The notes: generated by a model from the letters alone, not told the origin. Positions 40,278 through 57,348 are shown, numbered from the stretch's first letter. The stretch is 64,000 nucleotides of DNA from Escherichia coli (GCF_001677475.2 NZ_CP015229.1); one strand, 5' to 3'. Made by a program: numbers and translations.

Positions 40278-41192
40278 CTATACCGTTTCCATCGCCGCAT
40301 TTTCACTCACTTGCTGTCGATACACCTGCGGCGTAACCTGATAAGTCTGACGAAAAACTTTGCAAAAATAACTGGTTTGTGAAAAACCTAAATTACGCGC
40401 AATGCTGGCGATGCTCCAGTCGCTATGGCACAGTAACTCACGAGCGCTGGCCATCCGTTGTTGGTTTACCCACGCATTAAACCCGATTCCATGGTATTTC
40501 TTGAATAACTTACTGAAATAATAAGGGCTTAGATAAACATGCGAGGCGACATCTTCCAGACGCAAATCGTCTGATAAATGCGCATCAATATAGCGTAAAG
40601 CTTTTTTCATTTTATTGTCGTGGGGACCAGGCGCACGAGTCTGGCGCACCGAATCTGACTGAGATTTGTTCTCTTTAATAACCACAAAATTGAGTTGTTT
40701 TTTGAGGCAATTTTCTACAATCAACTTCAACAAATCAGCAGAGGCCATAACTCTTGAGTAATCCATCTCAGGGACTTTGCGAAATTCATTAAGTAATTCG
40801 GGATCTGCCTGCCAGCAATCATCGACATTCAGAATATCGACCAAATCGACATCATCATTACGCAGACGAACTTGCCCGCACAATACAAAACCGACTAAAT
40901 GCCCGGCGATTACCAGTGGAATAGAGAAATCGGTTAATCCGGCATGACAGCGATAAATACAAGGCTGATCGGATTTAGAGGCTTCCAGGCCCCCACAACG
41001 ATCGCTCATGCGACATCGAGTGCTTAGCTGAGGGTGTTGCCGCATCAACTGACAAAATGGAGTGAAGTTAAACAGCTCGGAAATTTCATCGCCGTGAATA
41101 TTGACCACGACAACCGCAAGGCTGGTCGCCTGCGCAAAATCCTGCGCGATTTTATTAATGAGTTCTGAATTAAGTGTCGCCGCAGAAATCAT
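40278..41192 (-). CDS. pocR: AraC-family regulator PocR (activator of pdu and cob operons)
   Basis: 304 aa; C-terminal AraC-type HTH (DVASHVYLSPYYFSKLFKKYHGIGFNAWVNQQRMASARELL); position between pduF and the cob leader. Confidence 0.85.
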   Translation of the reverse strand: MISAATLNSELINKIAQDFAQATSLAVVVVNIHGDEISELFNFTPFCQLMRQHPQLSTRCRMSDRCGGLEASKSDQPCIYRCHAGLTDFSIPLVIAGHLVGFVLCGQVRLRNDDVDLVDILNVDDCWQADPELLNEFRKVPEMDYSRVMASADLLKLIVENCLKKQLNFVVIKENKSQSDSVRQTRAPGPHDNKMKKALRYIDAHLSDDLRLEDVASHVYLSPYYFSKLFKKYHGIGFNAWVNQQRMASARELLCHSDWSIASIARNLGFSQTSYFCKVFRQTYQVTPQVYRQQVSENAAMETV

Positions 41193-41394
41193 GATAAAAC
41201 CTCCCAGTTAATTTATTGTTATAGCAAAACAATTGTTTTACATTTAATCTTCACATCATCCTTGATGATTTACTGACGAGAAGCACAAAGGACAATAACA
41301 AAAGCCTCCGTGAAGCGGGAGACTTTTTAATAAGTTCGGAAAGCAGATCACAAACAGTAAAAAAATAAACGTTTATAACTGCCAGATTATTTCG

Positions 41395-42204
41395 TTATTC
41401 GCTGATTTCTTTAGGCGTTACACTATTGACAGGTAAATTCTTTGCAATGAGATAGCGATAAATCGCCGCACCAACACATGCGCCAATGATCGGTGCAATA
41501 ATGGGTACAATGAAATAAGGAATATTGCGTCCACCAGTCATCGCAATTTCCCCCCAACCCGCAAGCCAGGTGAAAAATTTAGGTCCAAAATCACGCGCTG
41601 GATTCATGGCAAAACCGGTTAATGGTCCGGTAGAAGCACCAATAACAGCAACCAGAATACCAATTAGTAAAGGCGCAAGCGGTCCTTTGGGTACGCCATT
41701 ACCGTCATCGGTCAACGCCATAATCAACCCCATTAACATGGACGTTATGACCACTTCGACCAACGCAGCTTGCCATACATTAATCGCCGCTGCCGGATAA
41801 GTACTGAAGATACTGGCGAGTTGTAAACTTTCTGCACTACCACGCACCATATTGTGAGCAGATTCAAAATCGGTAAACAAACTGCTGTATAGAGAATATG
41901 CCAGAACCGCACCACCAAAGGCACCCGCTAATTGCGCCACACAAAATGGCAGCACTTTACGGGCTGGGAAAGAGGCAAACAGCCACAGAGCAATGGTAAC
42001 TGCCGGGTTGAGATGAGCGCCGGAAATACCTGCCGTAAGGTAAACAGCAAGCGAAATCCCTAACCCCCAAATGATACAAATTTCCCACAGTCCCAGACTT
42101 GCCCCGGCAACTTTCAGGGCGCACAAACAACCAATGCCAAAAAAGAGGAACAGTCCGGTGCCTAAAAACTCGGCAACGCATTGCGCCTTGAGTGAATCAT
42201 TCAT
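41395..42204 (-). CDS. pduF: Propanediol diffusion facilitator (MIP/aquaporin family)
   Basis: Two NPA motifs (HLNPAVT and NPARDFGPK), six TM helices; start taken at MNDSLKAQC within ORF 41395..42243. Confidence 0.85.
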   Translation of the reverse strand: MNDSLKAQCVAEFLGTGLFLFFGIGCLCALKVAGASLGLWEICIIWGLGISLAVYLTAGISGAHLNPAVTIALWLFASFPARKVLPFCVAQLAGAFGGAVLAYSLYSSLFTDFESAHNMVRGSAESLQLASIFSTYPAAAINVWQAALVEVVITSMLMGLIMALTDDGNGVPKGPLAPLLIGILVAVIGASTGPLTGFAMNPARDFGPKFFTWLAGWGEIAMTGGRNIPYFIVPIIAPIIGACVGAAIYRYLIAKNLPVNSVTPKEISE

Positions 42205-42243
42205 AGTGACACCTTCTTTACGGAGTTTTTCTTTATCAGCCAA

Positions 42244-42716
42244 CTATGCGCTGATTGTTGTGTATATCGAGCGCAACTATAAAAAATTGCTCTGCAGAAA
42301 ATATTGCCAACATGCATGACAGACTCGTGTAAAAATCGTTCTAACATAGCAAATTATTGTCATTGCCGAAGCATGCAACACAGCGTTAATCAGTGTTGAA
42401 AGTAATAATTACTGTCAAACTTTCACAATAAAAAATTGTCATCATGATATAATAAAATTTAAACAAATATCACAATTCCCTTCCGCCAACCAAACCCAAC
42501 GAAATTTTATCCGCGATTAACCCCCTCAACCAACGCAATTAATTCACATTGAAACATCCACAAAATAACCAAGAAATTAATAACATATAGTTTATAAAAG
42601 CAATTTTATAATATTTGCCCTCTATTAATTTTTCTCATTAGCCGATTAAGTCAGCCATTCTTTTTCCTCGCTTTTTTTTATAGTCATATCGTCAAAAAAA
42701 TCCAGGCGAGGTCTTT
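42244..42716. promoter_or_regulatory. Divergent pduF/pocR - pduA control region
   Basis: 473-bp AT-rich intergenic region between divergently transcribed pduF and pduA; expected site of the pdu promoters and PocR binding. Confidence 0.5.
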
Positions 42717-43001
42717 ATGCAACAAGAAGCGTTAGGAATGGTAGAAACCAAAGGCTTAACTGCCGCCATAGAGGCCGCAGACGCCATGGTGAAGTCGGCA
42801 AATGTTTTGCTGGTCGGCTACGAAAAAATAGGTTCCGGGCTGGTGACAGTCATCGTTCGTGGTGATGTCGGGGCGGTAAAAGCGGCAACAGACGCAGGTG
42901 CCGCAGCTGCGCGTAACGTCGGCGAAGTAAAAGCCGTACACGTTATTCCCCGCCCACATACCGATGTCGAAAAAATCTTACCAAAGGGAATTAACCCATG
43001 A
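42717..43001 (+). CDS. pduA: BMC-H shell protein PduA
   Basis: 94 aa with a single BMC domain ([30 protein letters not shown]...). Confidence 0.9.
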
Positions 43002-43810
43002 GCAGCAATGAACTGGTCAAACAGATCATGGCGCAGGTCATCGCTCGCGTAGCGACGCCAGAGCATGAGGTTCTCCCGAAAACCACTCATCAAATACGAG
43101 AGACGGCTATGGCAGAAAAAAGCTGCACGTTAACAGAATTTGTTGGCACCGCTATTGGCGACACTGTAGGTCTGGTCATTGCGAACGTTGATAGCGCCCT
43201 GTTGGACGCGATGAAACTTGAAAAACGCTATCGTTCCATTGGCATTCTGGGTGCGCGTATTGGCGCAGGGCCACACATTATGGCCGCTGATGAAGCGGTA
43301 AAAGCCACCAACACTGAAGTTATTAGCATTGAACTTCCTCGGGATACTAAAGGCGGTGCCGGACATGGCTCATTGATCCTCTTAGGTGGCAACGATGTTT
43401 CCGACGTGAAACGCGGTATTGAAGTCGCCCTGAAAGAACTCGATCGGACCTTTGGCGATGTCTATGCCAACGAAGCCGGACATCTTGAGCTGCAATATAC
43501 CGCCCGCGCCAGCTATGCACTGGAAAAAGCGTTTGGAGCACCATTGGGACGGGCTTGCGGCGTTATTGTCGGCGCTCCGGCTGCGGTGGGTGTTCTGATG
43601 GCCGACACCGCGCTGAAGTCCGCCAATGTGGATGTCGTGGCATACAGCTCCCCCGCTCAAGGCACCAGCTACAGCAACGAAGTCATTCTGATTATCTCGG
43701 GTGACTCCGGCGCAGTCCGCCAGGCGGTCATCTCCGCACGCGAAATCGGTAAAACCGTGCTTTCGACTCTCGGCGATACACCGAAAAACGATCGCCCTTC
43801 CTACATCTGA
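42998..43810 (+). CDS. pduB: Tandem-BMC shell protein PduB (an internal start would give PduB-prime)
   Basis: 270 aa; ATGA overlap with pduA; internal Met at [11 protein letters not shown] corresponds to the known PduB-prime start. Confidence 0.85.
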
Positions 43811-43828: not shown

Positions 43829-45493
43829 ATGAGATCGAAAAGATTTGAAGCACTGGCAAAACGCCCGGTCAACCAGGACGGTTTCGTTAAAGAGTGGATT
43901 GAAGAAGGCTTCATTGCGATGGAAAGCCCGAACGATCCTAAACCGTCAATCAAAATTGTTAACGGCGTCGTTACCGAACTGGATGGAAAACCCGCCAGTC
44001 AGTTTGACCTGATCGACCACTTTATCGCCCGCTACGGCATCAATCTCGCGCGCGCAGAGGAAGTCATCGCGATGGATTCGGTAAAACTGGCCAATATGTT
44101 GTGCGATCCAAATGTCAAACGTAGCAATATCGTTCCCCTTACCACAGCAATGACGCCTGCAAAAATAGTCGAAGTAGTTTCGCAGATGAACGTGGTAGAG
44201 ATGATGATGGCGATGCAGAAAATGCGCGCCCGTCGAACACCATCACAACAGGCTCACGTCACCAACGTCAAAGATAACCCGGTACAAATTGCCGCCGACG
44301 CAGCTGAAGGCGCATGGCGCGGGTTTGATGAACAGGAAACCACCGTTGCCGTTGCTCGCTATGCCCCGTTCAACGCCATCGCCCTGCTGGTCGGCTCACA
44401 GGTGGGACGCCCGGGCGTCTTGACCCAGTGTTCACTGGAAGAAGCCACCGAACTGAAACTCGGTATGTTAGGCCACACCTGTTACGCCGAAACAATTTCT
44501 GTCTATGGTACAGAACCTGTTTTCACCGATGGCGATGACACCCCGTGGTCAAAAGGATTTCTCGCGTCATCCTATGCTTCTCGCGGCTTAAAAATGCGCT
44601 TTACTTCCGGCTCTGGCTCTGAAGTACAGATGGGTTACGCGGAAGGTAAATCAATGCTTTATCTCGAGGCTCGTTGCATTTACATCACCAAAGCCGCAGG
44701 CGTTCAGGGCCTGCAGAGTGGTTCGGTAAGCTGCATCGGTGTTCCATCAGCTGTGCCATCAGGCATCCGCGCGGTATTAGCGGAAAACTTAATTTGCTCA
44801 TCGCTGGACCTGGAATGCGCCTCCAGTAATGACCAGACCTTTACCCACTCGGATATGCGCCGTACAGCACGTTTCCTGATGCAGTTTCTGCCAGGTACCG
44901 ACTTTATCTCTTCCGGTTTTTCCGCTGTGCCGAACTACGACAACATGTTTGCTGGTTCAAACGAAGATGCTGAAGACTTCGATGATTACAACGTCATTCA
45001 GCGTGACCTGAAGGTTGATGGCGGGCTGCGACCAGTACGCGAAGAAGATGTTATCGCTATCCGCAATAAAGCCGCTCGCGCTTTACAGGCTGTCTTTGCC
45101 GGTATGGGACTACCGCCTATTACCGATGAAGAAGTCGAAGCGGCAACCTATGCCCACGGTTCGAAAGATATGCCTGAGCGCAATATTGTGGAAGACATTA
45201 AGTTCGCCCAGGAGATTATCAATAAAAACCGTAACAGCCTGGAAGTGGTGAAAGCCCTGGCGCAAGGCGGTTTTACCGATGTCGCCCAGGCCATGCTCAA
45301 CATGCAAAAAGCAAAACTGACCGGCGATTATCTCCATACCTCAGCCATCATCGTCGATGACGGACAAGTGCTCTCTGCGGTCAATGACATCAATGATTAC
45401 GCCGGACCGGCTACAGGTTACCGCCTGCAAGGGGAACGCTGGGAAGAGATCAAAAATATTCCCGGTGCACTTGATCCCAACGAAATTGACTAA
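43829..45493 (+). CDS. pduC: B12-dependent diol dehydratase large subunit
   Basis: 554 aa; MRSKRFEALAKRPVNQDGFVKEWIEEG... matches PduC/PddA. Confidence 0.9.
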   Translation: MRSKRFEALAKRPVNQDGFVKEWIEEGFIAMESPNDPKPSIKIVNGVVTELDGKPASQFDLIDHFIARYGINLARAEEVIAMDSVKLANMLCDPNVKRSNIVPLTTAMTPAKIVEVVSQMNVVEMMMAMQKMRARRTPSQQAHVTNVKDNPVQIAADAAEGAWRGFDEQETTVAVARYAPFNAIALLVGSQVGRPGVLTQCSLEEATELKLGMLGHTCYAETISVYGTEPVFTDGDDTPWSKGFLASSYASRGLKMRFTSGSGSEVQMGYAEGKSMLYLEARCIYITKAAGVQGLQSGSVSCIGVPSAVPSGIRAVLAENLICSSLDLECASSNDQTFTHSDMRRTARFLMQFLPGTDFISSGFSAVPNYDNMFAGSNEDAEDFDDYNVIQRDLKVDGGLRPVREEDVIAIRNKAARALQAVFAGMGLPPITDEEVEAATYAHGSKDMPERNIVEDIKFAQEIINKNRNSLEVVKALAQGGFTDVAQAMLNMQKAKLTGDYLHTSAIIVDDGQVLSAVNDINDYAGPATGYRLQGERWEEIKNIPGALDPNEID

Positions 45494-45502
45494 GGGTGAG
45501 AA

Positions 45503-46171
45503 ATGGAAATTAACGAAAAATTACTGCGTCAGATTATCGAAGACGTGCTGGCAGAAATGCAAACCAGCGACAAGTCCGTTTCATTTCGCGCACCTGTCTC
45601 TGCAACTGCCTTTTCCGCGCCAGATACCGGAAATTTTCTGACCGAAATTGGCGAAGCACAACAAGGCACTCAGCAAGATGAAGTCATTATTGCTGTAGGC
45701 CCGGCGTTCGGCCTGGCGCAAACCGTCAATATCATCGGTATTCCGCATAAAAACATCTTGTGCGAAGTGATTGCCGGTATCGAAGAAGAAGGCATTAAAG
45801 CCCGTGTGATTCGCTGCTTTAAATCGTCCGATGTCGCATTCGTAGCAGTCGAAGGCGATCGTCTTAGTGGTTCAGGTATTGCTATCGGTATTCAGTCGAA
45901 AGGTACAACGGTTATCCACCAGCAAGGTCTTCCTCCCTTGTCTAACCTGGAACTTTTCCCACAAGCGCCTTTGTTGACGCTGGATACTTATCGTCAGATT
46001 GGCAAAAACGCCGCGCGTTATGCGAAGCGTGAGTCTCCACAACCGGTGCCGACCCTCAACGATCAAATGGCGCGGCCGAAATACCAGGCCAAATCTGCCA
46101 TTTTGCATATTAAAGAGACGAAGTACGTGGTCACTGGCAAAAAACCGCAAGAACTGCGCGTGACGTTTTAA
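45503..46171 (+). CDS. pduD: Diol dehydratase medium subunit
   Basis: 222 aa; position and size match PduD. Confidence 0.85.
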
Positions 46172-46185
46172 CAAAGGAAACCTTC

Positions 46186-46704
46186 ATGAATACCGATGCA
46201 ATTGAGTCGATGGTCAGGGACGTGTTGAATCGCATGAACAGTTTACAGGATGCAGCTCCTGTTTCTGCGGTCCCCAACGCGTCAATACAGAGCGCCAAAG
46301 TGACGGATTACCCGCTGGCAAATAAACATCCGGAATGGGTTAAAACAGCGACCAATAAAACGCTCGACGATTTCACCCTGGAAAATGTGCTAAGCGATAA
46401 CGTCACCGCCCAGGATATGCGCATTACCCCTGAAACATTGCGTATTCAGGCTGCGATTGCCAGAGATGCTGGTCGCGATCGTCTGGCGATGAATTTTGAA
46501 CGCGCCGCTGAGCTTACCTCAGTACCGGATGATCGCATCCTCGAAATCTACAATGCGTTACGCCCTTATCGTTCAACTAAGCAAGAACTTATTGCCATTG
46601 CTGACGATCTTGAACGGCGTTATCAGGCCCAAATTTGTGCTGCATTTGTCCGTGAAGCTGCGGAACTTTATGTCGAGCGCAAAAAACTGAAAGGCGACGA
46701 TTAA
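46186..46704 (+). CDS. pduE: Diol dehydratase small subunit
   Basis: 172 aa; position and size match PduE. Confidence 0.85.
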   Translation: MNTDAIESMVRDVLNRMNSLQDAAPVSAVPNASIQSAKVTDYPLANKHPEWVKTATNKTLDDFTLENVLSDNVTAQDMRITPETLRIQAAIARDAGRDRLAMNFERAAELTSVPDDRILEIYNALRPYRSTKQELIAIADDLERRYQAQICAAFVREAAELYVERKKLKGDD

Positions 46705-46713: not shown

Positions 46714-48546
46714 ATGCGATATGTAGCAGGCATTGATATCGGCAACTCATCAACAGAGGTTGCGCTGGCAACGCTCAGTGCAACTGGAGAGTTGTCGTTC
46801 GTGAGTAGCGCCCTGGCGGAAACCACAGGAATTAAAGGTACGTTGCGTAACGTCCATGGTATTCAGGAGGCGCTCGCACAGGCAACGAAAAAAGTCGGCA
46901 TCAATGTTAGCGATATTTCGCTTATTCGTATCAATGAAGCAACCCCGGTCATTGGTGATGTGGCGATGGAAACCATCACTGAAACTATCATCACCGAATC
47001 AACCATGATCGGTCACAACCCGAAAACTCCGGGCGGAGTGGGGCTGGGCGTAGGGCTCACCATCACTCCGCAAGAGTTATTAACACGCCCGGCGGACACA
47101 CCTTACATTCTGGTGGTGTCATCGGCATTTGATTTTGCCGATATCGCGAAGATGATAAACGCCTCCGTACGAGCCGGATATCAGCTGACTGGCGTTATTC
47201 TACAACGCGACGATGGTGTGCTGGTCAATAACCGCCTGGAAATTCCTTTACCTATTGTGGATGAAGTCCTCTACATCGATCGTATTCCGCTCGGCATGCT
47301 GGCTGCAATTGAAGTTGCCGTTCCCGGGAAAGTTATCGAAACCCTGTCTAACCCGTATGGGATTGCCACCGTTTTCGCCCTCAATGCTGAAGAGACTAAA
47401 AATATTGTTCCTGTCGCGCGGGCGCTAATCGGCAACCGTTCAGCAGTGGTAGTGAAAACGCCCTCTGGCGACGTTAAAGCCCGTTCGATACCCGCCGGAA
47501 ATATCGAACTGCTTTCTGCCGGGCGCACAACGCGGGTTGATGTAGCTGCTGGTGCCGATGCCATTATGAAAGCGGTCGGTGAGTGCCCAAAACTGGAAAA
47601 CGTGACAGGAGAACCAGGCACCAACATCGGCGGAATGCTGGAACATGTTCGCCAGACCATGGCGGAACTGACCAACAAACCCAGCAACGAAATTTTTATT
47701 CAGGATTTGCTGGCGATAGATACCTCTGTCCCCGTCAGCGTAACCGGCGGTCTGGCAGGTGAATTTTCACTGGAACAGGCTGTGGGTATTGCTTCTATGG
47801 TGAAATCCGACCGTCTGCAAATGGCGATGATCGCCAGTGAAATTAAGCAAAAACTGCATGTTGATGTTCAGGTCGGAGGCGCAGAAGCAGAAGCCGCCAT
47901 TCAGGGGGCCTTGACTACCCCAGGAACCACACGTCCACTGGCAATTCTGGACTTAGGTGCAGGCTCTACCGATGCCTCCATCATCAATCAGAAAGGGGAA
48001 ATCGTTGCCACTCACCTTGCGGGAGCGGGCGACATGGTAACGATGATTATCGCTCGTGAGCTGGGCTTAAATGATCGTTATCTGGCAGAAGAAATCAAAA
48101 AGTACCCGTTGGCAAAAGTAGAAAGCCTGTTCCACTTACGCCATGAAGATGGCAGCGTTCAGTTCTTCCCTACTCCCCTATCCCCTCATGTATTCGCCCG
48201 CGTTTGTGTGGTGAAACCTGACGAACTGGTGCCTATTCCCGGTGATTTGACGCTGGAAAAAGTACGCGCTGTTCGTCGCAGTGCGAAAGAACGTGTCTTC
48301 GTAACCAATGCCCTGCGCGCGCTACGTCAGGTAAGCCCTGCCGGAAATATTCGCGACATTCCGTTCGTCGTTCTGGTGGGTGGTTCTTCGCTGGATTTCG
48401 AAGTACCGCAATTGGTCACCGACGCGCTGGCACATTATCGACTGGTCGCCGGGCGGGGGAATATCCGTGGTAGCGAAGGTCCGCGCAACGCGGTAGCTAC
48501 TGGGCTACTCATCGCCTGGCACAAGGAGTCGATTCATGGAAAGTAA
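46714..48546 (+). CDS. pduG: Diol dehydratase reactivase large subunit
   Basis: 610 aa; MRYVAGIDIGNSSTEVALA... actin/Hsp70-like ATPase fold typical of PduG/DdrA. Confidence 0.85.
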   Translation: MRYVAGIDIGNSSTEVALATLSATGELSFVSSALAETTGIKGTLRNVHGIQEALAQATKKVGINVSDISLIRINEATPVIGDVAMETITETIITESTMIGHNPKTPGGVGLGVGLTITPQELLTRPADTPYILVVSSAFDFADIAKMINASVRAGYQLTGVILQRDDGVLVNNRLEIPLPIVDEVLYIDRIPLGMLAAIEVAVPGKVIETLSNPYGIATVFALNAEETKNIVPVARALIGNRSAVVVKTPSGDVKARSIPAGNIELLSAGRTTRVDVAAGADAIMKAVGECPKLENVTGEPGTNIGGMLEHVRQTMAELTNKPSNEIFIQDLLAIDTSVPVSVTGGLAGEFSLEQAVGIASMVKSDRLQMAMIASEIKQKLHVDVQVGGAEAEAAIQGALTTPGTTRPLAILDLGAGSTDASIINQKGEIVATHLAGAGDMVTMIIARELGLNDRYLAEEIKKYPLAKVESLFHLRHEDGSVQFFPTPLSPHVFARVCVVKPDELVPIPGDLTLEKVRAVRRSAKERVFVTNALRALRQVSPAGNIRDIPFVVLVGGSSLDFEVPQLVTDALAHYRLVAGRGNIRGSEGPRNAVATGLLIAWHKESIHGK

Positions 48547-49204: not shown

Positions 49205-49627
49205 GTGAAGCAATCACTGGGATTACTTGAAGTCAGTGGTCTGGCTCTCGCCATCAGTTGCGCAGACGCTATGGCAAAAGCCGCGTCCATCACGCTGGTT
49301 GGCCTTGAGAAGACCAATGGCTCAGGCTGGACGCTCATCAAAATCACCGGTGACGTCGCCTCGGTTAATGCGGCGATCGCGACGGGAGCCAGTTTCGCCG
49401 GACAGCGAAATGGCCTTGTCGCACACAAAGTGATTGCCCGCCCGGGAGACGGCATTCTGCCCCACACAACTGAAGCATTGACCGTGACGGTTGAAACAAG
49501 CAAAACACCAGCAACAACCGTCACCTCAGAGATTATCAGTTGTAATTTGTGTCTTGACCCGGCATGTCAGCGGCAAAAAGGTGAGCCCCGCTCACTTTGC
49601 CTGTACGCCAATAAGCGAGGGGAGTAG
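49205..49627 (+). CDS. pduK: BMC shell protein PduK
   Basis: 140 aa; N-terminal BMC domain with C-terminal extension containing cysteines (CNLCLDPAC). Confidence 0.8.
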   Translation: MKQSLGLLEVSGLALAISCADAMAKAASITLVGLEKTNGSGWTLIKITGDVASVNAAIATGASFAGQRNGLVAHKVIARPGDGILPHTTEALTVTVETSKTPATTVTSEIISCNLCLDPACQRQKGEPRSLCLYANKRGE

Positions 49628-49629
49628 CA

Positions 49630-50262: not shown

Positions 50263-50750
50263 ATAACATGCTGATGCAACGTATTGTTGACGAAGTGGTT
50301 TTTCGCCTTAAACAACGTGCGGGAAAAGCACTCGTGCTGACTGTTTTTCAACTGCGAGACGCCAGCGTTCAAGAGAGCGTTCATCAGTATGCGTCATTAC
50401 AAATCCGATATGTCGATCTGCCGTTGTTACGACAACTTGCGGAGAACAAAACGTCAGATCGAGCAGCAATTCAGATACACGAAGCGTTAGCCTGGGGATT
50501 GCACATTCAATTGTCGTTGCAGCGTCATTTCCTGAACGCCATTGAATTGAAGACTCTCGCCCGTCTACCGCTAAGCTGGTGCGACGAGCAAGGGCAACCG
50601 ATCTACCTTCATCGTGATCGACTTTTAAGTTATGCCGATATTGCACAGTTAAGCTCGGGAATACTGGTGTTACAGCGAAAATGTTGTGTGACCGCACTGG
50701 CTCGTGAAGCGGCAATTACCCGAAATATTCAGTTAATCAGGCAGGAGTAA
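50259..50750 (+). CDS. pduM: Microcompartment structural protein PduM
   Basis: 163 aa; position and size match PduM. Confidence 0.75.
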   Translation: MNNMLMQRIVDEVVFRLKQRAGKALVLTVFQLRDASVQESVHQYASLQIRYVDLPLLRQLAENKTSDRAAIQIHEALAWGLHIQLSLQRHFLNAIELKTLARLPLSWCDEQGQPIYLHRDRLLSYADIAQLSSGILVLQRKCCVTALAREAAITRNIQLIRQE

Positions 50751-50753
50751 CCT

Positions 50754-51029
50754 ATGCATCTGGCTCGAGTCACTGGCGCGGTAGTATCCACGCAAAAATC
50801 ACCTTCTCTGATCGGGAAAAAACTGCTGCTGGTTCGCCGGGTCAGTGCTGACGGCGAACTGCCTCTCACGCCATTAACCGGCGACGAAGTTGCCGTTGAT
50901 TCCGTCGGCGCAGGCGTTGGTGAGTTGGTACTCCTCAGCAGTGGTTCCAGTGCCAGACATGTGTTTTCAGGCCCTAACGAGGCCATCGACCTGGCAGTGG
51001 TCGGCATTGTCGATACGCTTTCGCGCTAA
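50754..51029 (+). CDS. pduN: BMC vertex (pentamer) protein PduN
   Basis: 91 aa; EutN/CcmL-family pattern. Confidence 0.85.
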
Positions 51030-51040: not shown

Positions 51041-52048
51041 ATGGCAATTTATACCCGAACAGGTGATTCAGGAAGTACGTCTTTATTTACCGGACAGCGC
51101 GTCAGCAAAACTCATCTACGTGTCGAAACCTATGGCACGCTGGATGAACTGAACGCGACACTCAGTCTGTGTTATTGCGCCACCGCCATCGAAAGCCATC
51201 GCATCTTACTGGAAGCTATTCAACAACAGATATTTTGGTTTAGCGCCGAACTCGCCAGTGAAAGCGAACAGCCGTCAGCGCAGCAGCGTTACATCGGTAC
51301 GGAAGAAATTGCCGCGCTGGAAAACGCGATCGATAGCGCAATGAACGCCGTCCCCCCAGTTCACAGCTTCATTCTGCCTGGTCGATGTGAAGCCGCGAGC
51401 CGCATGCATTTCGCCCGCACAGTGGCTCGACGGGCTGAAAGACGTCTGGTTGAACTGACAACGGAAACCACCGTCCGGAAGGTTTTGCTGCACTATATCA
51501 ACCGACTTTCCGATTGTCTGTATGCCCTCGCCCGCGTGGAAGACAACGTTGCTCATCAAAACCTGATGATTCAGGAAATCACAAAACGTTATCACGAAGC
51601 CAACCATACACCAGCATTGAAGGAACGCACAATGCCGCTCACTTTTCAGGATCTTCACCAGCTCATTCGTAGTGCGGCAATGCGCGCAGATGAACTGCAT
51701 ATTCCCGTTGTCATCAGCATTGTTGATGCCAACGGAACAGAAAGTGTTACCTGGCGGATGCCTGATGCCCTGTTGGTCAGCAGTGAACTGGCACCGAAAA
51801 AAGCCTGGACCGCCGTGGCGATGAAAACGGCAACCCACAAACTTGCTGATACCGTGCAACCCGGCGCGCCGCTTTACGGGCTCGAAAGCCATATGCAAGG
51901 CAAAGTCGTCACTTTTGGTGGCGGCTTCCCCCTCTGGCGTGACGGAATATTGCTTGGCGGGCTTGGCATCAGCGGCGGTAGCGTTGAACAAGACATGGAT
52001 ATTGCTCAAAGCGCAATGGCGGCAATTAACGTGGGAGTAAACCAATGA
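51041..52048 (+). CDS. pduO: ATP:cob(I)alamin adenosyltransferase (PduO type) with C-terminal DUF336 domain
   Basis: 335 aa; N-terminal MAIYTRTGDSGSTSLFTG is the PduO-type ATR signature. Confidence 0.85.
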   Translation: MAIYTRTGDSGSTSLFTGQRVSKTHLRVETYGTLDELNATLSLCYCATAIESHRILLEAIQQQIFWFSAELASESEQPSAQQRYIGTEEIAALENAIDSAMNAVPPVHSFILPGRCEAASRMHFARTVARRAERRLVELTTETTVRKVLLHYINRLSDCLYALARVEDNVAHQNLMIQEITKRYHEANHTPALKERTMPLTFQDLHQLIRSAAMRADELHIPVVISIVDANGTESVTWRMPDALLVSSELAPKKAWTAVAMKTATHKLADTVQPGAPLYGLESHMQGKVVTFGGGFPLWRDGILLGGLGISGGSVEQDMDIAQSAMAAINVGVNQ

Positions 52049-53430
52049 ATAACTCTGAATTAGAAACACTGATCCGCAATATTCTGCGCGAGCAACTTGT
52101 CCCCGCTACACCACGAACGCAAAGAAACGCTATTTTCCAGACTGTTGATGAAGCGGTCTGCGCAGCACACCAGGCCTTTTTACGCTTTCAACAGTGCCCG
52201 CTGAAAACCCGTAGCGCCATTATCAGCGCCATTCGCGAAGAATTAATGCCCCGCCTTACCGAACTGGCAGAAGAAAGCGCCAAAGAAACGGGGATGGGAA
52301 ATAAAGAAGATAAGTACCTAAAAAACAAAGCGGCACTCGATAACACGCCAGGAATTGAAGATTTAACCACCACTGCACTAACCGGTGATGGTGGCATGGT
52401 TTTGTTTGAATACTCCCCGTTTGGGGTTATTGGCTCGGTCACGCCGAGCACCAACCCCACGGAAACCATCATTAACAACAGCATCAGCATGCTGGCAGCA
52501 GGTAATAGCGTCTACTTCAGTCCACACCCGGGAGCCAAATACGTTTCGTTAAAACTGATTACCACAATCGAAGACATCGCGTTTCGCTGTAGTGGCATTC
52601 ATAACCTGATCGTTACCGTATCTGAACCGACCTTTGCTGCTACCGAACAGATGATGGCGCACCCTAAAATCAGCGTTCTGGCGATTACCGGCGGTCCGGG
52701 GATCGTCGCCATGGGAATGAAAAGTGGCAAGAAAGTGATTGGTGCCGGAGCGGGTAACCCTCCGTGTATCGTCGATGAAACGGCGGATATTGTGAAAGCC
52801 GTCGAAGATATCATCAACGGCGCTTCATTTGATTACAACCTGCCGTGTATCGCTGAAAAAAGCCTGATTGTCGTAGCATCAGTGGCAGAGTATTTAATTC
52901 AGCAGATGCAAAGTTTTGGCGCGCTTCTTCTTAACTATGAGCAAACGGAGAAATTGCGTGCAATTTGCCTGCCAGACGGTAGCGCCAACAAAAAACTGGT
53001 TGGGAAAAGCCCATCAGCCTTGCTGGAAGCGGCAGGCCTCCCTTTGCCCGCAAAAGCGCCGCGCCTACTGATTGCTGTTGTCGACGCCAATGATAGTTGG
53101 GTTACTTGTGAACAACTGATGCCAATGCTGCCCATTGTGAAGGTCAACGATTTTGATAGCGCTCTCGCCCTGGCGCTGAAAGTGGAAGACGGCTTGCACC
53201 ACACGGCAATTATGCACTCGCAGAACGTCTCACGGCTCAACCTTGCCGCACGCGTTATGCAAACCTCAATCTTTGTCAAAAACGGCCCCTCCTGGGCGGG
53301 TATTGGCGTCGGCGGCGAAGGCTTTACGACCTTTACCATTGCAACACCGACCGGAGAAGGGACAACGTCAGCACGGACTTTTGCCCGCTCACGACGCTGC
53401 GTGTTAACCAGCGGCTTTTCAATTCGCTAG
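52045..53430 (+). CDS. pduP: CoA-acylating propionaldehyde dehydrogenase
   Basis: 461 aa; aldehyde dehydrogenase fold with catalytic Cys region (NPPCIVDE...); position matches PduP. Confidence 0.85.
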   Translation: MNNSELETLIRNILREQLVPATPRTQRNAIFQTVDEAVCAAHQAFLRFQQCPLKTRSAIISAIREELMPRLTELAEESAKETGMGNKEDKYLKNKAALDNTPGIEDLTTTALTGDGGMVLFEYSPFGVIGSVTPSTNPTETIINNSISMLAAGNSVYFSPHPGAKYVSLKLITTIEDIAFRCSGIHNLIVTVSEPTFAATEQMMAHPKISVLAITGGPGIVAMGMKSGKKVIGAGAGNPPCIVDETADIVKAVEDIINGASFDYNLPCIAEKSLIVVASVAEYLIQQMQSFGALLLNYEQTEKLRAICLPDGSANKKLVGKSPSALLEAAGLPLPAKAPRLLIAVVDANDSWVTCEQLMPMLPIVKVNDFDSALALALKVEDGLHHTAIMHSQNVSRLNLAARVMQTSIFVKNGPSWAGIGVGGEGFTTFTIATPTGEGTTSARTFARSRRCVLTSGFSIR

Positions 53431-53440
53431 AGAAACGGAA

Positions 53441-54553
53441 ATGAATACTTTTTCACTGCAGACGCGTTTATACAGCGGACCGGGAAGTCTCAAGGTACTT
53501 AGCCGTTTCTCTCATAAACACATCTGGATTGTTTGCGACGTCTTTCTGGCACGTTCACCACTCATTGACACGTTGCATCAGGCGCTGCCCGACAGTAATC
53601 GTCTTAGTATTTTTAGCGAAATAACGCCCGACCCAACTATCCAGACCGTGGTGAAAGGCATTGCGCAAATGCAGACTTTACGCCCGGATGTGGTTATCGG
53701 TTTTGGCGGCGGTTCTGCCCTGGACGCCGCAAAAGCGATTGTCTGGTTCGGTCGCCAGTGTGGCATTGAAATTGAAACCTGCGTAGCCATTCCTACCACC
53801 AGCGGTACCGGTTCCGAAGTGACCAGTGCTTGTGTCATCAGCGATCCTGAGAAAGGGATTAAATATCCCCTTTTCGATAATGCACTTTATCCGGATATCG
53901 CGATCCTTGATCCATCTCTGATCGTCAGCGTGCCACCGGCGATAACGGCCAATACCGGGATGGATGTTTTAACCCATGCGCTTGAAGCTTATGTTTCTCC
54001 TCGCGCCAGCGACTTCACGGATGCACTGGTCGAAAAAGCCGTGCAAATTGTTTTTCAATACCTGCCCACTGCAGTGAAAAAAGGCGATTGTCTTGCCACC
54101 CGTGGCAAAATGCATAATGCATCGACGCTTGCAGGAATGGCCTTTAGCCAGGCCGGACTCGGTTTAAACCATGCAATTGCTCATCAACTCGGCGGACAGT
54201 TTCATCTGCCGCACGGACTGGCGAATGCGCTCCTGCTCACGGCAGTTATCCGCTTTAATGCTGGCGATCCGCGCACAGCCAAACGCTATGCCCGGCTGGC
54301 GAAAACGTGCCATTTATGCCCGGACAACGCCAATGACACCGCCAGCCTGAATGCACTTATTCAACATATTGAGCAGCTTAAAACAACCTGTACGCTGCCG
54401 ACTCTTACCAATGCGCTGAAAGAAAAAAAAGCAGAATGGTCAATACGCATACCAGATATGGTTCAGGCGGCACTGGCGGATGCAACGTTGCGTACCAACC
54501 CGCGTGCGGCTGATGCCTCCGCTATTGCAGAACTGCTCGAGGAGTTGTTATGA
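53441..54553 (+). CDS. pduQ: Iron-containing 1-propanol dehydrogenase
   Basis: 370 aa; Fe-ADH family GGGS glycine-rich motif; position matches PduQ. Confidence 0.85.
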   Translation: MNTFSLQTRLYSGPGSLKVLSRFSHKHIWIVCDVFLARSPLIDTLHQALPDSNRLSIFSEITPDPTIQTVVKGIAQMQTLRPDVVIGFGGGSALDAAKAIVWFGRQCGIEIETCVAIPTTSGTGSEVTSACVISDPEKGIKYPLFDNALYPDIAILDPSLIVSVPPAITANTGMDVLTHALEAYVSPRASDFTDALVEKAVQIVFQYLPTAVKKGDCLATRGKMHNASTLAGMAFSQAGLGLNHAIAHQLGGQFHLPHGLANALLLTAVIRFNAGDPRTAKRYARLAKTCHLCPDNANDTASLNALIQHIEQLKTTCTLPTLTNALKEKKAEWSIRIPDMVQAALADATLRTNPRAADASAIAELLEELL

Positions 54554-55893
54554 ACGTCGAGTTAACCTCCTGCGACGACCAGACCATCCGCGAGCGAGTA
54601 CAGGCAGCAGGTGTCGTGGGTGCAGGCGGCGCAGGTTTTCCAACCCATATTAAGCTACAAGCGCGTGTTGACACTTTCCTGGTGAATGCGGCGGAATGCG
54701 AACCAATGTTGAACGTGGATCAACAGTTAATGGCGCAGCAAGCCAGTCGCCTGCTTCGCGGTGTTCACTATGCGATGAAAGCCACCGGGGCCAGTAGCGG
54801 AATCATCGCGCTGAAAGAGAAATATCAACTGGCAATAAACGCACTCACACCACTGTTACCACCGGATATCCGCCTGCATATTTTGCCCGACGTTTACCCC
54901 GCAGGAGACGAAGTGCTGACCATCTGGATGGCAACTGGTCGCCGCGTTCCACCCGCTGCATTACCCGTTAGCGTCGGTGTGGTGGTCAATAATGTTCAAA
55001 CCGTACTTAATATTGCCAGAGCCGTCGAGCAACAGTATCCAGTGACGCGCCGCACACTCACCGTTAATGGTGCAGTGGCGAAACCAATAACGGTAACCGT
55101 CCCCATCGGCATGTCTTTACGTGAAGTCCTGGCGCTGGCGGGCGGCGCAACAGTGGATGCTCCTGGTTTTATCAATGGCGGACCGATGATGGGAAGTTTG
55201 ATCACATCGCTCGACACACCAGTCAGCAAAACCACTGGCGGCTTGCTGGTTTTACCCAACTCTCATTCACTGATCCAACGTCGAATGCAGAATGACCGCA
55301 GCGTACTTGCCGTCGCGAAAACTGTTTGTGAGCAATGCCGCTTGTGTACCGATCTCTGCCCACGTCATTTAATCGGTCACGAACTGGCACCCCATTTGTT
55401 AGTACGTGCGGTTAACTACCAACAGCTCGCTACGCCGCAACTGTTACTGACGGCGCTCACCTGTTCAGAGTGCAACGTCTGCGCCAGCGTCGCCTGTCCG
55501 GTAGGAATTTCACCAATGCGCATAAACCGCCTGCTTAAGCAGGAATTACGCGCACAAAATCTCCGTTACGAAGGTACCTTAAATCCTGCAGATCCCATGG
55601 CAAATTATCGACTGATTCCCGTAAAACGGCTGGTAACCAGACTTGGCTTAACCCCGTGGTATCAGGATGCGCCATTGTCTGAACAGGTGCCTCAGACCGA
55701 AAAAGTGACGTTATTGTTACGCCAGCACATCGGTGCCAGCGCAATTGCGTGTGTACAAAAAGGCGATCGCGTCGTTCATGGGCAATGTGTAGGTCAAATT
55801 CCACACGGCACATTAGGTGCCCCCATTCATGCCAGTATTGATGGCATGGTCAGCGATGTGACAGAAAACGCAATTACGCTTGTGAGAGGTTAA
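54550..55893 (+). CDS. pduS: Cobalamin reductase (Fe-S flavoprotein, RnfC-like)
   Basis: 447 aa; two Cys clusters ([12 protein letters not shown] and [13 protein letters not shown]); position matches PduS. Confidence 0.85.
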
Positions 55894-55895: not shown

Positions 55896-56450
55896 ATGTC
55901 GAAAGCGGTAGGTATTTTAGAACTTAGCAGTATCGCGAAAGGGATGGAAACCGGCGACGCCATGCTGAAAAGCGCCAACGTTGAGTTACTGGTCAGCAAA
56001 ACGCTATGCCCCGGAAAATTTCTGCTGATGCTCGGTGGCGATGTGGGCGCGGTGCAACAGGCCATCAATAGCGGATCTTCCCTTGCTGGTGAAATGCTGG
56101 TCGACAGTCTTGTCCTGCCGAATATTCATCCCAGCCTCCTTTCTGCAATCAGCGGACTTAACCATGTTGAACAGCACCGGGCTGTCGGCGTAGTCGAAAC
56201 CTGGAGTGTCGCCGCCTGCATTGACGCAGCCGATTGTGCTGTCAAAGCTGCGAATGTCATTCTCGTTCGCGTACATATGGCTTTTGGCATTGGTGGTAAA
56301 TGCTACATGGTGGTTGCTGGCGATATTTCAGATGTTAATAACGCGGTCTCTGTTGCCAGCGAGCGTGCGGGGGAAAAAGGTTTGTTGGTCTATCGGTCAG
56401 TGATTGCCCGTCCACATGAAGCCATGTGGCGTCAGATGGTGGAGGGATAA
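55896..56450 (+). CDS. pduT: Tandem-BMC shell protein PduT
   Basis: 184 aa; two BMC-like repeats. Confidence 0.85.
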
Positions 56451-56800
56451 TGACAACTCAGCACACAACTGAACGGATGATTCAGGAATATGTCCCTGGT
56501 AAGCAGGTCACGCTGGCACATGTCATCGCCAATCCAGGGAAGGATCTGTTTAAGAAATTGGGTTTACCAGACACCGTTTCTGCTATTGGCATTCTGACGA
56601 TTACCCCCAGCGAAGCATCTATCATCGCATGTGATATCGCCACAAAATCAGGCGCTGTAGAGATCGGTTTTCTTGATCGTTTTACCGGTGCCGTAGTGCT
56701 GACTGGTGATGTTTCTGCGATTGAATATGCACTTAGCCAGGTTACCCGTACGCTGGGTGAAATGATGCGCTTTACCGCTTGCCCCATTACGCGGACCTGA
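56450..56800 (+). CDS. pduU: BMC shell protein PduU (permuted BMC)
   Basis: About 116 aa from [18 protein letters not shown]...; its start overlaps the pduT stop; the ORF track 56426..56800 is an upstream extension. Confidence 0.85.
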
Positions 56801-56804
56801 CGTT

Positions 56805-57248
56805 ATGCAACGTATGATGCTCATCGGCCCCAGCCAGTGCGGAAAAACGTCGCTCACGCAATGTCTGCGTGGCGAAAATATTCATTATCAGAAAACGCAG
56901 GCAATCGTCTGGTCCCCGACCACCATTGATACACCAGGCGAATACCTCGAAAACCGCAGCCTCTACAGTGCTCTGTTGGTCAGCGCCTGCGAAGCGGACA
57001 TTATCGCCCTGGTGCTTAATGCGGACGCACCGTGGTCCCCTTTTTCGCCAGGCTTTACCTCGTCAATGAATCGCCCGGTCATTGGAGTAGTAACCAAAGC
57101 AGATTTAGCCAGCATGGAACAAATATCTTTGGTGAAATGTTGGTTACGGGAAGCTGGAGCGCACAACGTGTTAGTAACCAGTGCGGTTAATAACAATGGA
57201 GTTACAGAACTTTTTGCCTTGCTGCATACAGAAGATGTCTGTCGCTAA
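56805..57248 (+). CDS. pduV: Small GTPase-like protein PduV
   Basis: 147 aa; P-loop GPSQCGKTS; last gene of the operon in this window. Confidence 0.85.
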
Positions 57249-57307
57249 TTTCGATAGGTTATCAGATGGGAATGATGACTTTGATACACAGAAAAGAATC
57301 AATGAGC

Positions 57308-57336
57308 AATGAGGGTTGCCGGGCAACCCTCATTGA
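57308..57336. terminator. Perfect inverted repeat between convergent pduV and yeeX (terminator-like)
   Basis: tgagggttgcc-g-ggcaaccctca. Confidence 0.5.
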
Positions 57337-57348
57337 ATAAAACAGGAA

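What the first reader, a model, noticed from the sequence alone, without database searches (positions are those of the whole stretch)
40278..57348. Complete pocR-pduF-pduABCDEGHJKLMNOPQSTUV locus without pduW/pduX, abutting yeeX
A full 1,2-propanediol utilisation microcompartment operon (21 genes on the plus strand) with its regulator and facilitator sits between cobU and yeeX, the position occupied in K-12 by the CP4-44 prophage as I recall it. The operon stops at pduV, only about 100 bp from yeeX, so the propionate kinase pduW and the threonine kinase pduX are absent. With the cbi genes also missing, the strain would need exogenous corrinoids for diol dehydratase activity but keeps adenosylation and reactivation (pduO, pduS, pduGH).
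Basis: partly seen in the sequence, partly recalled or inferred. Interest (0 to 1): 0.5.

Follow-up and report, generated by a model that had tools for sequence, protein, structure and literature searches.

The report
Ordinary E. coli propanediol-utilisation (pdu) locus
This is the well-known, intact gene cluster that lets about one in eight E. coli strains break down 1,2-propanediol inside a protein-shelled compartment using imported vitamin B12; its lack of pduW and pduX is normal for the whole genus Escherichia, so the finding is correct but ordinary.

Summary
Window 40278-57248 carries pocR and pduF on the minus strand and 19 intact genes, pduABCDEGHJKLMNOPQSTUV, on the plus strand. A 100-bp gap with a strong hairpin separates pduV from yeeX (tmaR). 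No pduW or pduX homologue lies anywhere in the window. Between cobU and pocR there are only 1,052 bp, holding a cobalamin riboswitch and a 145-aa CbiG-like remnant.

None of this is unusual. The same layout, cobU to yeeA, occurs in 635 of 5,426 complete E. coli genomes at about 98% identity. E. albertii, E. whittamii and two divergent E. coli lineages also run from pduV straight into tmaR. Citrobacter, Salmonella, Phytobacter and Kosakonia have pduV-pduW-pduX-tmaR at the same chromosomal site.

The pdu genes are under purifying selection within Escherichia. PduW and PduX are cytosolic in Salmonella. Their likely replacements are AckA/TdcD and corrinoid salvage through cobUST. The locus is already known from LF82 and other adherent-invasive E. 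coli. Interest is low.

The parts
36849..39225 (-). cobT (36849-37928), cobS (37940-38683) and cobU (38680-39225): the nucleotide-loop assembly and cobinamide salvage genes
   Evidence: NCBIfam: CobT 470.8 bits, CobS 301.6 bits, CobU 246.8 bits. Same order as in the RefSeq annotation of E. coli UTME-8.
39359..39796 (-). 145-aa remnant ORF resembling the N-terminal part of CbiG; the only trace of the cbi operon
   Evidence: NCBIfam cobalt-precorrin-5A hydrolase, E = 1e-20, profile positions 1-126 of 351, far below the cut-off. No Pfam hit. Homologues of about 144 aa were found only in Escherichia and Shigella. Annotated as CbiG (LF82_328) in LF82 (PMC4509574).
40015..40189 (-). Cobalamin riboswitch aptamer, pointing toward the cbi remnant and cobUST
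   Evidence: Rfam RF00174, 109.5 bits against a gathering score of 31.5, full-length match. Annotated at the same place in UTME-8.
40278..41192 (-). pocR, the AraC-family activator of the pdu/cob regulon
   Evidence: NCBIfam TransRegPocR, 553.8 bits against a cut-off of 500.
41253..41336 (+). Match to the enterobacterial sRNA family STnc230, between pocR and pduF
   Evidence: Rfam RF02075, 76.3 bits against a gathering score of 50. A terminator-like hairpin lies at 41300-41327.
41395..42204 (-). pduF, the propanediol diffusion facilitator (MIP channel)
   Evidence: NCBIfam MIP family, 224.4 bits. Named pduF in the RefSeq homologue.
42717..43810 (+). pduA (42717-43001) and pduB (42998-43810), shell proteins
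   Evidence: pduA matches BMC-domain families. PduB scores 473.5 bits against a cut-off of 173.
43829..46704 (+). pduC (43829-45493), pduD (45503-46171) and pduE (46186-46704): the B12-dependent diol dehydratase
   Evidence: NCBIfam: 1068.7, 387.6 and 356.1 bits, all above their cut-offs.
46714..48886 (+). pduG (46714-48546) and pduH (48536-48886): the diol dehydratase reactivase
   Evidence: PduG matches TIGR04491 at 961.6 bits. PduH is named reactivase beta/small subunit in RefSeq.
48906..51029 (+). pduJ (48906-49181), pduK (49205-49627), pduL (49630-50262), pduM (50259-50750) and pduN (50754-51029)
   Evidence: pduJ and pduK match BMC-domain families. PduL (phosphate propanoyltransferase) scores 253.4 bits, PduM 244 bits. 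PduN matches the EutN/CcmL vertex-protein family.
51041..55893 (+). pduO (51041-52048), pduP (52045-53430), pduQ (53441-54553) and pduS (54550-55893)
   Evidence: PduO N-terminal adenosyltransferase domain 161.4 bits. PduP-type aldehyde dehydrogenase 712.2 bits. PduQ matches iron-dependent alcohol dehydrogenases. PduS matches the RnfC-like subfamily at 257.3 bits. RefSeq names agree.
55896..57248 (+). pduT (55896-56450), pduU (56450-56800) and pduV (56805-57248), the last genes of the operon
   Evidence: PduT-like tandem BMC protein, EutS/PduU family at 134.4 bits, EutP/PduV family at 186.7 bits. PduV aligns with residues 1-144 of the 146-residue Salmonella PduV, so it is not truncated.
57307..57335 (.). 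13-bp-stem hairpin in the 100-bp gap between the convergent genes pduV and tmaR; probably a two-way terminator
   Evidence: RNA fold -21.8 kcal/mol, z = -4.69, 0 of 200 shuffles fold as well. Conserved in E. coli, K-12, E. whittamii and E. albertii.
57349..57678 (-). tmaR (yeeX), the conserved right-hand neighbour
   Evidence: NCBIfam DUF496/TmaR, 197 bits. It is the neighbour of pduV in Escherichia and of pduX in Citrobacter and Salmonella.

Best explanation
This is the native Escherichia form of the pdu locus. It is a vertically inherited, functional operon for degrading 1,2-propanediol inside a microcompartment with coenzyme B12, and it runs on imported corrinoids.

Inferred mechanism, by homology to Salmonella:
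- PduF admits propanediol, and PocR switches on the divergent promoters.
- The shell proteins PduA, B, J, K, N, T and U, with PduM, enclose the PduCDE diol dehydratase, which produces propionaldehyde.
- PduP converts propionaldehyde to propionyl-CoA. PduQ recycles NAD+ by making 1-propanol. PduL makes propionyl-phosphate.
- PduGH, PduO and PduS reactivate the enzyme and re-adenosylate the cofactor. PduV is shell-associated.
- The last step, propionyl-phosphate to propionate plus ATP, has no dedicated kinase here. The housekeeping cytosolic kinases AckA and/or TdcD presumably carry it out.
- B12 is not made de novo. It has to come from imported cobalamin, or from cobinamide completed by the adjacent cobUST genes. 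PduX, the threonine kinase for the de novo linker, is therefore dispensable.

pduW, pduX and the cbi operon are absent together across the genus Escherichia. The pdu-negative state of K-12 and most E. coli is a later replacement of window 39531-57065 by an IS/CP4-44-type island.
For: Shown here:
- All 21 genes are intact, with family matches above the cut-offs.
- The same cobU-to-yeeA arrangement occurs in 635 of 5,426 complete E. coli genomes, at best 98.3% identity. The pduA-V segment alone is in 636.
- Every pdu-negative genome in a spread sample of 26 keeps the 3' end of pduV (about 183 bp in most, 40-299 bp overall) next to tmaR; 5,410 genomes match in all.
- K-12 J53 matches the window at 36801-39530 and from 57066 onward, with IS5, IS2, agn43, yeeRST, cbeA/cbtA and yeeW in between.
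- E. coli E69, E. whittamii, E. coli SCPM-O-B-8794 and E. albertii all go from pduV to tmaR. Citrobacter, Salmonella, Phytobacter and Kosakonia have pduV-pduW-pduX-tmaR-yeeA-sbmC-dacD.
- The pduV-tmaR spacer and its hairpin are conserved across Escherichia.
- Nucleotide identity of the pdu genes tracks that of the flanking core genes in every comparison: about 98% to E. coli, about 90% to other Escherichia, about 75% to Citrobacter and Salmonella.
- dN/dS of the pdu genes against E. albertii, E. whittamii and E69 is 0.00-0.35, mostly 0.13 or below.

From the literature:
- pdu is present in about 50% of adherent-invasive and about 20% of other E. coli, and isolates were grown on 1,2-propanediol (PMC9220930).
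- The LF82 gene list runs CbiG fragment, pocR, pduF, pdu genes (PMC4509574).
- A pdu-positive Crohn's isolate has pduL but only TdcD (44% identical) as a PduW relative (PMC7360682).
- PduW and PduX are cytosolic, not microcompartment components (PMC7181861).
- PduX is used for de novo synthesis, not for cobinamide salvage (PMC5282855).
Against: - No experiment on this strain exists; growth on propanediol and compartment formation are inferred.
- Only this 64-kb window of the source genome could be read. The presence of ackA, tdcD, btuB/CDF, btuR(cobA) and cobC elsewhere in the genome is assumed from E. coli in general.
- Synonymous divergence of the pdu genes from E. albertii (about 0.2-0.5) is lower than that of the flanks yeeA, dacD and sbcB (0.7-1.0). 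Strictly vertical descent may therefore be too simple. Exchange of the segment between Escherichia lineages by homologous recombination is possible.
- Whether pduWX were lost in the Escherichia ancestor or gained in the sister lineages cannot be decided from the spacer, which holds no recognisable pduW or pduX remnant.
Confidence: 0.88

Rival explanations
1. The locus is a recently acquired genomic island, for example from Salmonella or Citrobacter, whose right end was cut off on integration and so lost pduW and pduX.
For: K-12 carries a mobile island (CP4-44) at the same site, so the site does accept foreign DNA. One E. coli genome (strain 48) does carry an IS-flanked foreign pdu cluster elsewhere. 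dS of the pdu genes is lower than dS of the flanks against E. albertii.
Against: - There is no integrase, IS or repeat at either boundary of the pdu segment in the window.
- pdu identity equals flank identity in each comparison and is only about 75% to Citrobacter and Salmonella.
- The same pduV-tmaR junction is present in four other Escherichia lineages.
- K-12 and most E. coli retain pduV and cbi scars, which shows that pdu was there before the island.
- G+C content of 0.50-0.54 is similar to the neighbouring sequence.
Confidence: 0.04
2. The operon is a decaying relic. Without pduW, pduX and cbi it no longer supports propanediol use and is drifting toward loss, as in most E. coli.
For: About 88% of complete E. 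coli genomes have lost it. The neighbouring cbi remnant is clearly degenerate. In LF82 cultures without inducer the pdu genes were expressed at low levels (PMC4509574).
Against: - All 21 reading frames are full length.
- dN/dS is mostly 0.13 or below over the divergence from other Escherichia species, that is, since pduWX and cbi were already absent.
- pdu genes are induced by fucose, and E. coli isolates have been grown on 1,2-propanediol (PMC9220930).
- The two missing genes are cytosolic and have housekeeping or salvage substitutes.
Confidence: 0.06
3. The end of the operon at pduV is an assembly or window artefact, and pduW and pduX are really present just downstream.
For: None found.
Against: The sequence runs without interruption from pduV into tmaR, yeeA, sbmC, dacD and sbcB. 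The same junction is seen in 635 complete genomes. Salmonella pduW-pduX DNA matches only 1 of 5,426 E. coli genomes, at a different locus.
Confidence: 0.01

Closest known systems
pdu locus of pdu-positive E. coli (e.g. adherent-invasive strain LF82, genes LF82_328-348; RefSeq strain UTME-8, NZ_CP157115.1)
   Same: Gene content, order, strands and both junctions are identical: cobUST, CbiG-like remnant, cobalamin riboswitch, pocR, pduF, pduA-V, tmaR. All gene lengths are the same.
   Different: About 1.5-2% nucleotide divergence only. No complete RefSeq genome is closer than 98.3% over the 20.4 kb.
cob-pdu regulon of Salmonella enterica (and the Citrobacter equivalent)
   Same: Same chromosomal position, next to tmaR-yeeA-sbmC-dacD. 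Same order pduA through pduV, with pocR and pduF divergent. Proteins are about 70-92% identical.
   Different: Salmonella and Citrobacter have pduW (propionate kinase, overlapping the pduV stop codon) and pduX (threonine kinase) between pduV and tmaR. By established knowledge of Salmonella (the cbi region itself was not read here; the order cbiABCDETFGHJKLMNQOP-cobUST is quoted in PMC5282855), they also have the 17-gene cbiA-P operon between the riboswitch and cobU. Here both are absent.
E. coli K-12 cobU-yeeX interval with the CP4-44 cryptic prophage
   Same: Flanks are the same: cobTSU with 172 bp of the remnant ORF on the left, and the last 183 bp of pduV with the hairpin spacer and tmaR on the right.
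   Different: Window 39531-57065 (riboswitch, pocR, pduF, pduA through most of pduV) is replaced in K-12 by about 12.7 kb of IS5, IS2, agn43, yeeRST, cbeA/cbtA and yeeW.

Membership tests
Pdu (1,2-propanediol utilisation) bacterial microcompartment locus, Salmonella LT2 type | B12-dependent diol dehydratase PduCDE | tested here: met
   NCBIfam: 1068.7, 387.6 and 356.1 bits, all above their cut-offs.
Pdu (1,2-propanediol utilisation) bacterial microcompartment locus, Salmonella LT2 type | Shell genes: hexamer type (PduA, J, K, U), tandem-domain type (PduB, T) and pentamer type (PduN) | tested here: met
   BMC-domain, PduB (473.5 bits), PduT-like, EutS/PduU (134.4 bits) and EutN/CcmL matches.
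Pdu (1,2-propanediol utilisation) bacterial microcompartment locus, Salmonella LT2 type | Aldehyde-processing core: PduP, PduQ and PduL | tested here: met
   PduP-type aldehyde dehydrogenase 712.2 bits, iron-dependent alcohol dehydrogenase, phosphate propanoyltransferase 253.4 bits.
Pdu (1,2-propanediol utilisation) bacterial microcompartment locus, Salmonella LT2 type | Cofactor recycling: PduGH reactivase, PduO adenosyltransferase, PduS reductase | tested here: met
   PduG 961.6 bits, PduO N-terminal domain 161.4 bits, PduS RnfC-like 257.3 bits. PduH is identified by its RefSeq name and position.
Pdu (1,2-propanediol utilisation) bacterial microcompartment locus, Salmonella LT2 type | Divergent pocR regulator and pduF facilitator | tested here: met
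   PocR equivalog 553.8 bits against a cut-off of 500. MIP channel 224.4 bits.
Pdu (1,2-propanediol utilisation) bacterial microcompartment locus, Salmonella LT2 type | Operon-encoded propionate kinase PduW and threonine kinase PduX | tested here: not met
   tblastn of Salmonella PduW and PduX against the window: best E-values 0.11 and 0.18. pduV is followed by tmaR after 100 bp. These two genes are accessory and cytosolic in Salmonella (PMC7181861), so the locus is the Escherichia variant of the type, not the full LT2 set.
Pdu (1,2-propanediol utilisation) bacterial microcompartment locus, Salmonella LT2 type | Linked cbi operon for de novo B12 synthesis | tested here: not met
   Only a riboswitch and a 145-aa CbiG-like remnant lie between cobU and pocR.
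Pdu (1,2-propanediol utilisation) bacterial microcompartment locus, Salmonella LT2 type | Growth on 1,2-propanediol that depends on B12, and formation of polyhedral bodies | not testable with these tools
   Reported for other pdu-positive E. coli (PMC9220930). Not known for the source strain.
Escherichia-type pdu locus (as in LF82 and 635 complete RefSeq E. coli genomes) | Same gene order and same left (cobU, remnant, riboswitch) and right (pduV, hairpin, tmaR) junctions | tested here: met
   One-piece megablast match over 100% of window 38600-59000 in hundreds of genomes. Annotation of UTME-8 agrees. Spacer alignment agrees.

The most novel reading that the evidence does not exclude
The pdu operon without pduW, pduX and cbi is the ancestral state of the cobU-tmaR interval for the whole genus Escherichia. 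It has been kept under purifying selection as a salvage-dependent version. The pdu-negative state of K-12, O157:H7 and most other E. coli would then descend from one replacement event with fixed breakpoints (window 39530 and 57066), and E. coli would carry an old presence/absence polymorphism. This differs from the textbook statement that E. coli simply lost cob-pdu. It would also fit vertical descent of cob-pdu at this site across Escherichia, Citrobacter and Salmonella better than loss followed by reacquisition.
Probability: 0.55. Interest if true: 0.3.

Novelty: already known. Interest (0 to 1): 0.1.

Why it matters
It matters little as a discovery. The E. coli pdu locus is annotated routinely and has been studied as a fitness and inflammation factor of Crohn's-associated E. 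coli.

The check still gives three useful results:
- The source strain belongs to the roughly 12% of E. coli that can be expected to use fucose- or rhamnose-derived 1,2-propanediol in the gut when B12 or cobinamide is available.
- The missing pduW and pduX should not be read as damage.
- The exact K-12 breakpoints are 39530 and 57066 in window coordinates, and the junction is shared across the genus. This is a clean example of an ancestral metabolic operon replaced by a mobile island.

Tried and rejected
- Pfam scan of the remnant ORF 39359-39865 gave nothing significant. A PDB sequence search gave nothing. Only the NCBIfam CbiG model (E = 1e-20, below its cut-off) and the LF82 annotation support its origin, so why a CbiG N-terminus sits right after the riboswitch remains unexplained.
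- I searched the pduV-tmaR spacer for leftover pduW or pduX sequence against the Salmonella and Citrobacter loci. Only tmaR coding sequence matched, so loss in Escherichia cannot be told apart from gain in the sister genera.
- A recently acquired island, a decaying pseudo-operon and an assembly artefact were considered and rejected (see the rival explanations).
- Three key papers were not held and could not be read: Lawrence and Roth 1996, Palacios et al. 2003 and Viladomiu et al. 2021. Statements about AckA compensating for PduW therefore rest on my own knowledge of Palacios et al. 2003 and on the secondary citation in PMC7360682.
- The simple promoter scan of 39200-42800 found fewer sigma-70-like sites than shuffled sequence did. 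It does not locate the pdu or pocR promoters.
- The source strain could not be identified. The best complete genomes are 96.3-99.0% identical depending on the segment.

Full report
**1. What is in the sequence**

The ORF list and NCBIfam scans show the following genes:

| Gene | Coordinates | Strand |
|---|---|---|
| pocR | 40278-41192 | - |
| pduF | 41395-42204 | - |
| pduA | 42717-43001 | + |
| pduB | 42998-43810 | + |
| pduC | 43829-45493 | + |
| pduD | 45503-46171 | + |
| pduE | 46186-46704 | + |
| pduG | 46714-48546 | + |
| pduH | 48536-48886 | + |
| pduJ | 48906-49181 | + |
| pduK | 49205-49627 | + |
| pduL | 49630-50262 | + |
| pduM | 50259-50750 | + |
| pduN | 50754-51029 | + |
| pduO | 51041-52048 | + |
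| pduP | 52045-53430 | + |
| pduQ | 53441-54553 | + |
| pduS | 54550-55893 | + |
| pduT | 55896-56450 | + |
| pduU | 56450-56800 | + |
| pduV | 56805-57248 | + |

Every gene has the same length as its RefSeq counterpart in E. coli UTME-8. The diagnostic families score above their curated cut-offs: PocR 553.8 bits, PduB 473.5, PduC 1068.7, PduD 387.6, PduE 356.1, PduG 961.6, PduL 253.4, PduM 244, PduP-type dehydrogenase 712.2 and PduV family 186.7.

Its phrase "21 genes on the plus strand" is not: 19 are on the plus strand and 2 on the minus strand.

**2. The right boundary**

pduV ends at 57248, and the stop codon of tmaR (yeeX, 57349-57678, minus strand) begins at 57349, which leaves 100 bp. 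The spacer holds a 13-bp-stem hairpin at 57307-57335. It folds at -21.8 kcal/mol with z = -4.69, and none of 200 shuffles folds as well. This fits a shared terminator for the two convergent genes.

PduV aligns with residues 1-144 of the 146-residue Salmonella PduV, so it is not truncated.

I took PduW and PduX from Salmonella enterica subsp. diarizonae (L031). The 404-aa protein scores 870.4 bits on the acetate/propionate kinase equivalog. I took the following 300-aa ORF as PduX from its position and length. It got no NCBIfam match, but it has conserved counterparts at the same position in Citrobacter and the other genera. Neither protein has a match anywhere in the 64-kb window; the best tblastn E-values are 0.11 and 0.18.

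**3. The left boundary**

cobT, cobS and cobU lie at 36849-39225 on the minus strand. Only 1,052 bp separate cobU from pocR. This stretch holds two features:
- A full-length cobalamin riboswitch at 40015-40189 on the minus strand, scoring 109.5 bits.
- A 145-aa ORF at 39359-39796 on the minus strand. It resembles the first 126 positions of the CbiG model at E = 1e-20, far below the cut-off. It has no Pfam or PDB match. Homologues were found only as ORFs of about 144 aa in Escherichia and Shigella. The same gene is called CbiG (LF82_328) in strain LF82 (PMC4509574).

The cbi operon is therefore absent apart from this scar. Rfam also reports STnc230 between pocR and pduF, at 41253-41336.

**4. 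How common the locus is**

Megablast of window 38600-59000 (cobU to yeeA) against 5,426 complete E. coli genomes finds one-piece matches covering at least 80% in 635 genomes, or 11.7%. The best identity is 98.3%. The pduA-V segment alone is present in 636 genomes.

In total 5,410 genomes match some part of pduA-V. In an evenly spaced sample of the ranking, all 26 pdu-negative genomes match only the 3' end of pduV: about 183 bp in most, and between 40 and 299 bp overall. RefSeq annotates this piece as a short EutP/PduV protein next to tmaR.

Salmonella pduW-pduX DNA, searched at low stringency, hits only 1 of 5,426 genomes. That hit is in strain 48 from a deer. It lies in a different pdu cluster flanked by IS66, IS21 and IS4 elements, and that cluster has pduW but no pduX.

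The lack of pduW and pduX is therefore the rule for E. coli. It is not a feature of this strain, and it is not an assembly gap.

**5. Comparison with K-12**

In the K-12 derivative J53, the order is:
- cobU
- a 174-bp "cobalamin biosynthesis protein" fragment
- IS5
- TonB-receptor fragments split by IS2
- a GTPase fragment
- agn43
- yeeR, yeeS, yeeT
- cbeA, cbtA
- yeeW
- a transposase fragment
- a 183-bp piece of pduV
- tmaR

Direct alignment shows K-12 collinear with the window from 36801 to 39530 and again from 57066 onward. Window 39531-57065 is therefore exactly what CP4-44 and its insertion sequences replace in K-12. The scars on both sides show that the pdu-bearing arrangement came first.

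**6. Comparison with other genera**

A scan of one genome per species with PduS returned 80 loci. tblastn mapping gave the following.

| Group | Loci | Order after pduV |
|---|---|---|
| E. coli E69, E. whittamii, E. coli SCPM-O-B-8794, E. albertii | L004, L005, L006, L007 | pduV, then tmaR directly |
| Citrobacter (many species), S. enterica subsp. diarizonae, Phytobacter, Kosakonia and others | several, including L031 | pduV-pduW-pduX-tmaR-yeeA-sbmC-dacD |
| Klebsiella-type loci and Escherichia sp. MOD1-EC7003 | including L012 | pduW and pduX present, but no tmaR neighbour |

The pduV-tmaR spacer, including the hairpin, aligns across all the Escherichia loci and K-12. It contains no recognisable remnant of pduW or pduX.

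Nucleotide identity of the pdu genes tracks that of the flanking core genes in each comparison:
- about 98-99% to E. coli UTME-8
- about 88-93% to E69, E. whittamii and E. albertii
- about 72-84% to Citrobacter and Salmonella

This is what vertical descent at a fixed site predicts. It argues against a recent island.

One caveat applies. Synonymous divergence from E. albertii is lower for the pdu genes (about 0.2-0.5, with pduV at 0.62) than for yeeA, dacD and sbcB (0.7-1.0). Some later exchange among Escherichia lineages, or stronger codon constraint, cannot be excluded.

**7. Is the operon alive?**

dN/dS of the 16 pdu genes testable against E. albertii, E. whittamii and E69 is 0.00-0.35, and mostly 0.13 or below. 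The genes have therefore stayed under purifying selection over a period in which pduW, pduX and cbi were already absent.

Published work agrees:
- pdu is reported in about 50% of adherent-invasive and about 20% of other E. coli.
- It is induced during growth on fucose.
- Isolates have been grown on 1,2-propanediol (PMC9220930).

**8. How it most likely works**

The pathway is inferred from the Salmonella system:
- PduF lets propanediol in, and PocR activates the divergent promoters.
- The shell (PduA, B, J, K, N, T, U, with PduM) encloses PduCDE, which makes propionaldehyde.
- PduP and PduQ convert propionaldehyde to propionyl-CoA and 1-propanol.
- PduL makes propionyl-phosphate.
- PduGH, PduO and PduS keep the cofactor active.

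The two missing functions both act outside the compartment. GFP fusions in Salmonella place PduW and PduX in the cytosol (PMC7181861).

- **Propionyl-phosphate to propionate plus ATP.** AckA or TdcD can supply this step. A pdu-positive Crohn's isolate has pduL but only TdcD, 44% identical, as a PduW relative (PMC7360682). That AckA compensates for the loss of PduW in Salmonella is my recollection of Palacios et al. 2003, which I could not open.
- **PduX.** It phosphorylates threonine for the aminopropanol linker in de novo synthesis and is not needed for cobinamide salvage (PMC5282855, citing Fan and Bobik 2008). With cbi gone it has no role.

cobUST remain. They lie downstream of, and on the same strand as, the riboswitch and the remnant ORF, and a promoter-like site sits just upstream of cobU at 39354-39327.

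**9. Verdict**

The object is the standard, already described Escherichia pdu locus.

The only mildly interesting by-product is evolutionary. The junctions are shared across the genus, and most E. coli keep scars of the operon. This suggests an old presence/absence polymorphism at a site that Citrobacter and Salmonella also use. That sits awkwardly with the simple statement that E. coli lost cob-pdu (for example PMC3158058). I rate that reading as plausible but of modest interest.

Overall interest is low, and the novelty class is "already known".

Noticed in passing
window 31009-34375: The sulfur-regulation gene cbl is split by an IS21-family element. Cbl residues 1-202 are at 33665-34375 (minus strand) and residues 178-316 at 31009-31428 (minus strand). 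istA (31523-33022) and istB (33019-33774) lie in between.
   Followed up: partly
L083 (E. coli strain 48, NZ_CP166879.1, 5249950-5269130): This is the only one of 5,426 complete E. coli genomes with a pduW-like kinase after pduV. It belongs to a second, divergent pdu cluster (about 75% identical to Salmonella pduW) flanked by IS66, IS21 and IS4 elements, so it is a real horizontally acquired pdu island.
   Followed up: partly
window 39359-39796 (-): The CbiG-like remnant keeps an open frame of about 144 aa in E. coli, E. albertii, E. marmotae and Shigella, although protein identity is only about 70%. It starts at position 1 of the CbiG model, directly downstream of the riboswitch that precedes cbiA in Salmonella. 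How that junction arose is unexplained.
   Followed up: partly
window 45503-62499 compared with L007 (E. albertii): Synonymous divergence of the pdu genes (about 0.2-0.5) is roughly half that of the adjacent core genes yeeA, dacD and sbcB (0.7-1.0). This could reflect later exchange of the pdu segment between Escherichia species or stronger codon constraint.
   Followed up: no
window 1-13354: Prophage remnant next to tRNA-Ser(CGA) (13265-13354) and mtfA. It carries the sok antitoxin RNA (1299-1473), DicF sRNA (8748-8799), an 823-aa RecE/exonuclease VIII-like ORF (9454-11925) and a tyrosine-recombinase-like ORF (12187-13212).
   Followed up: no
window 14346-35796: Four identical tRNA-Asn genes lie at 14346, 29072, 30896 and 35721. 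A 2,692-aa inverse-autotransporter adhesin (yeeJ-like, 14660-22738) follows the first of them. This 25-kb stretch is only 96.3% identical to the best complete E. coli genomes, less than the pdu region.
   Followed up: no
L012 (Escherichia sp. MOD1-EC7003): This Escherichia-labelled genome carries a Klebsiella-like pdu operon (PduS 80% identical) with pduW and pduX and without the tmaR neighbour. It is either a transferred cluster or a mislabelled or contaminated assembly.
   Followed up: no
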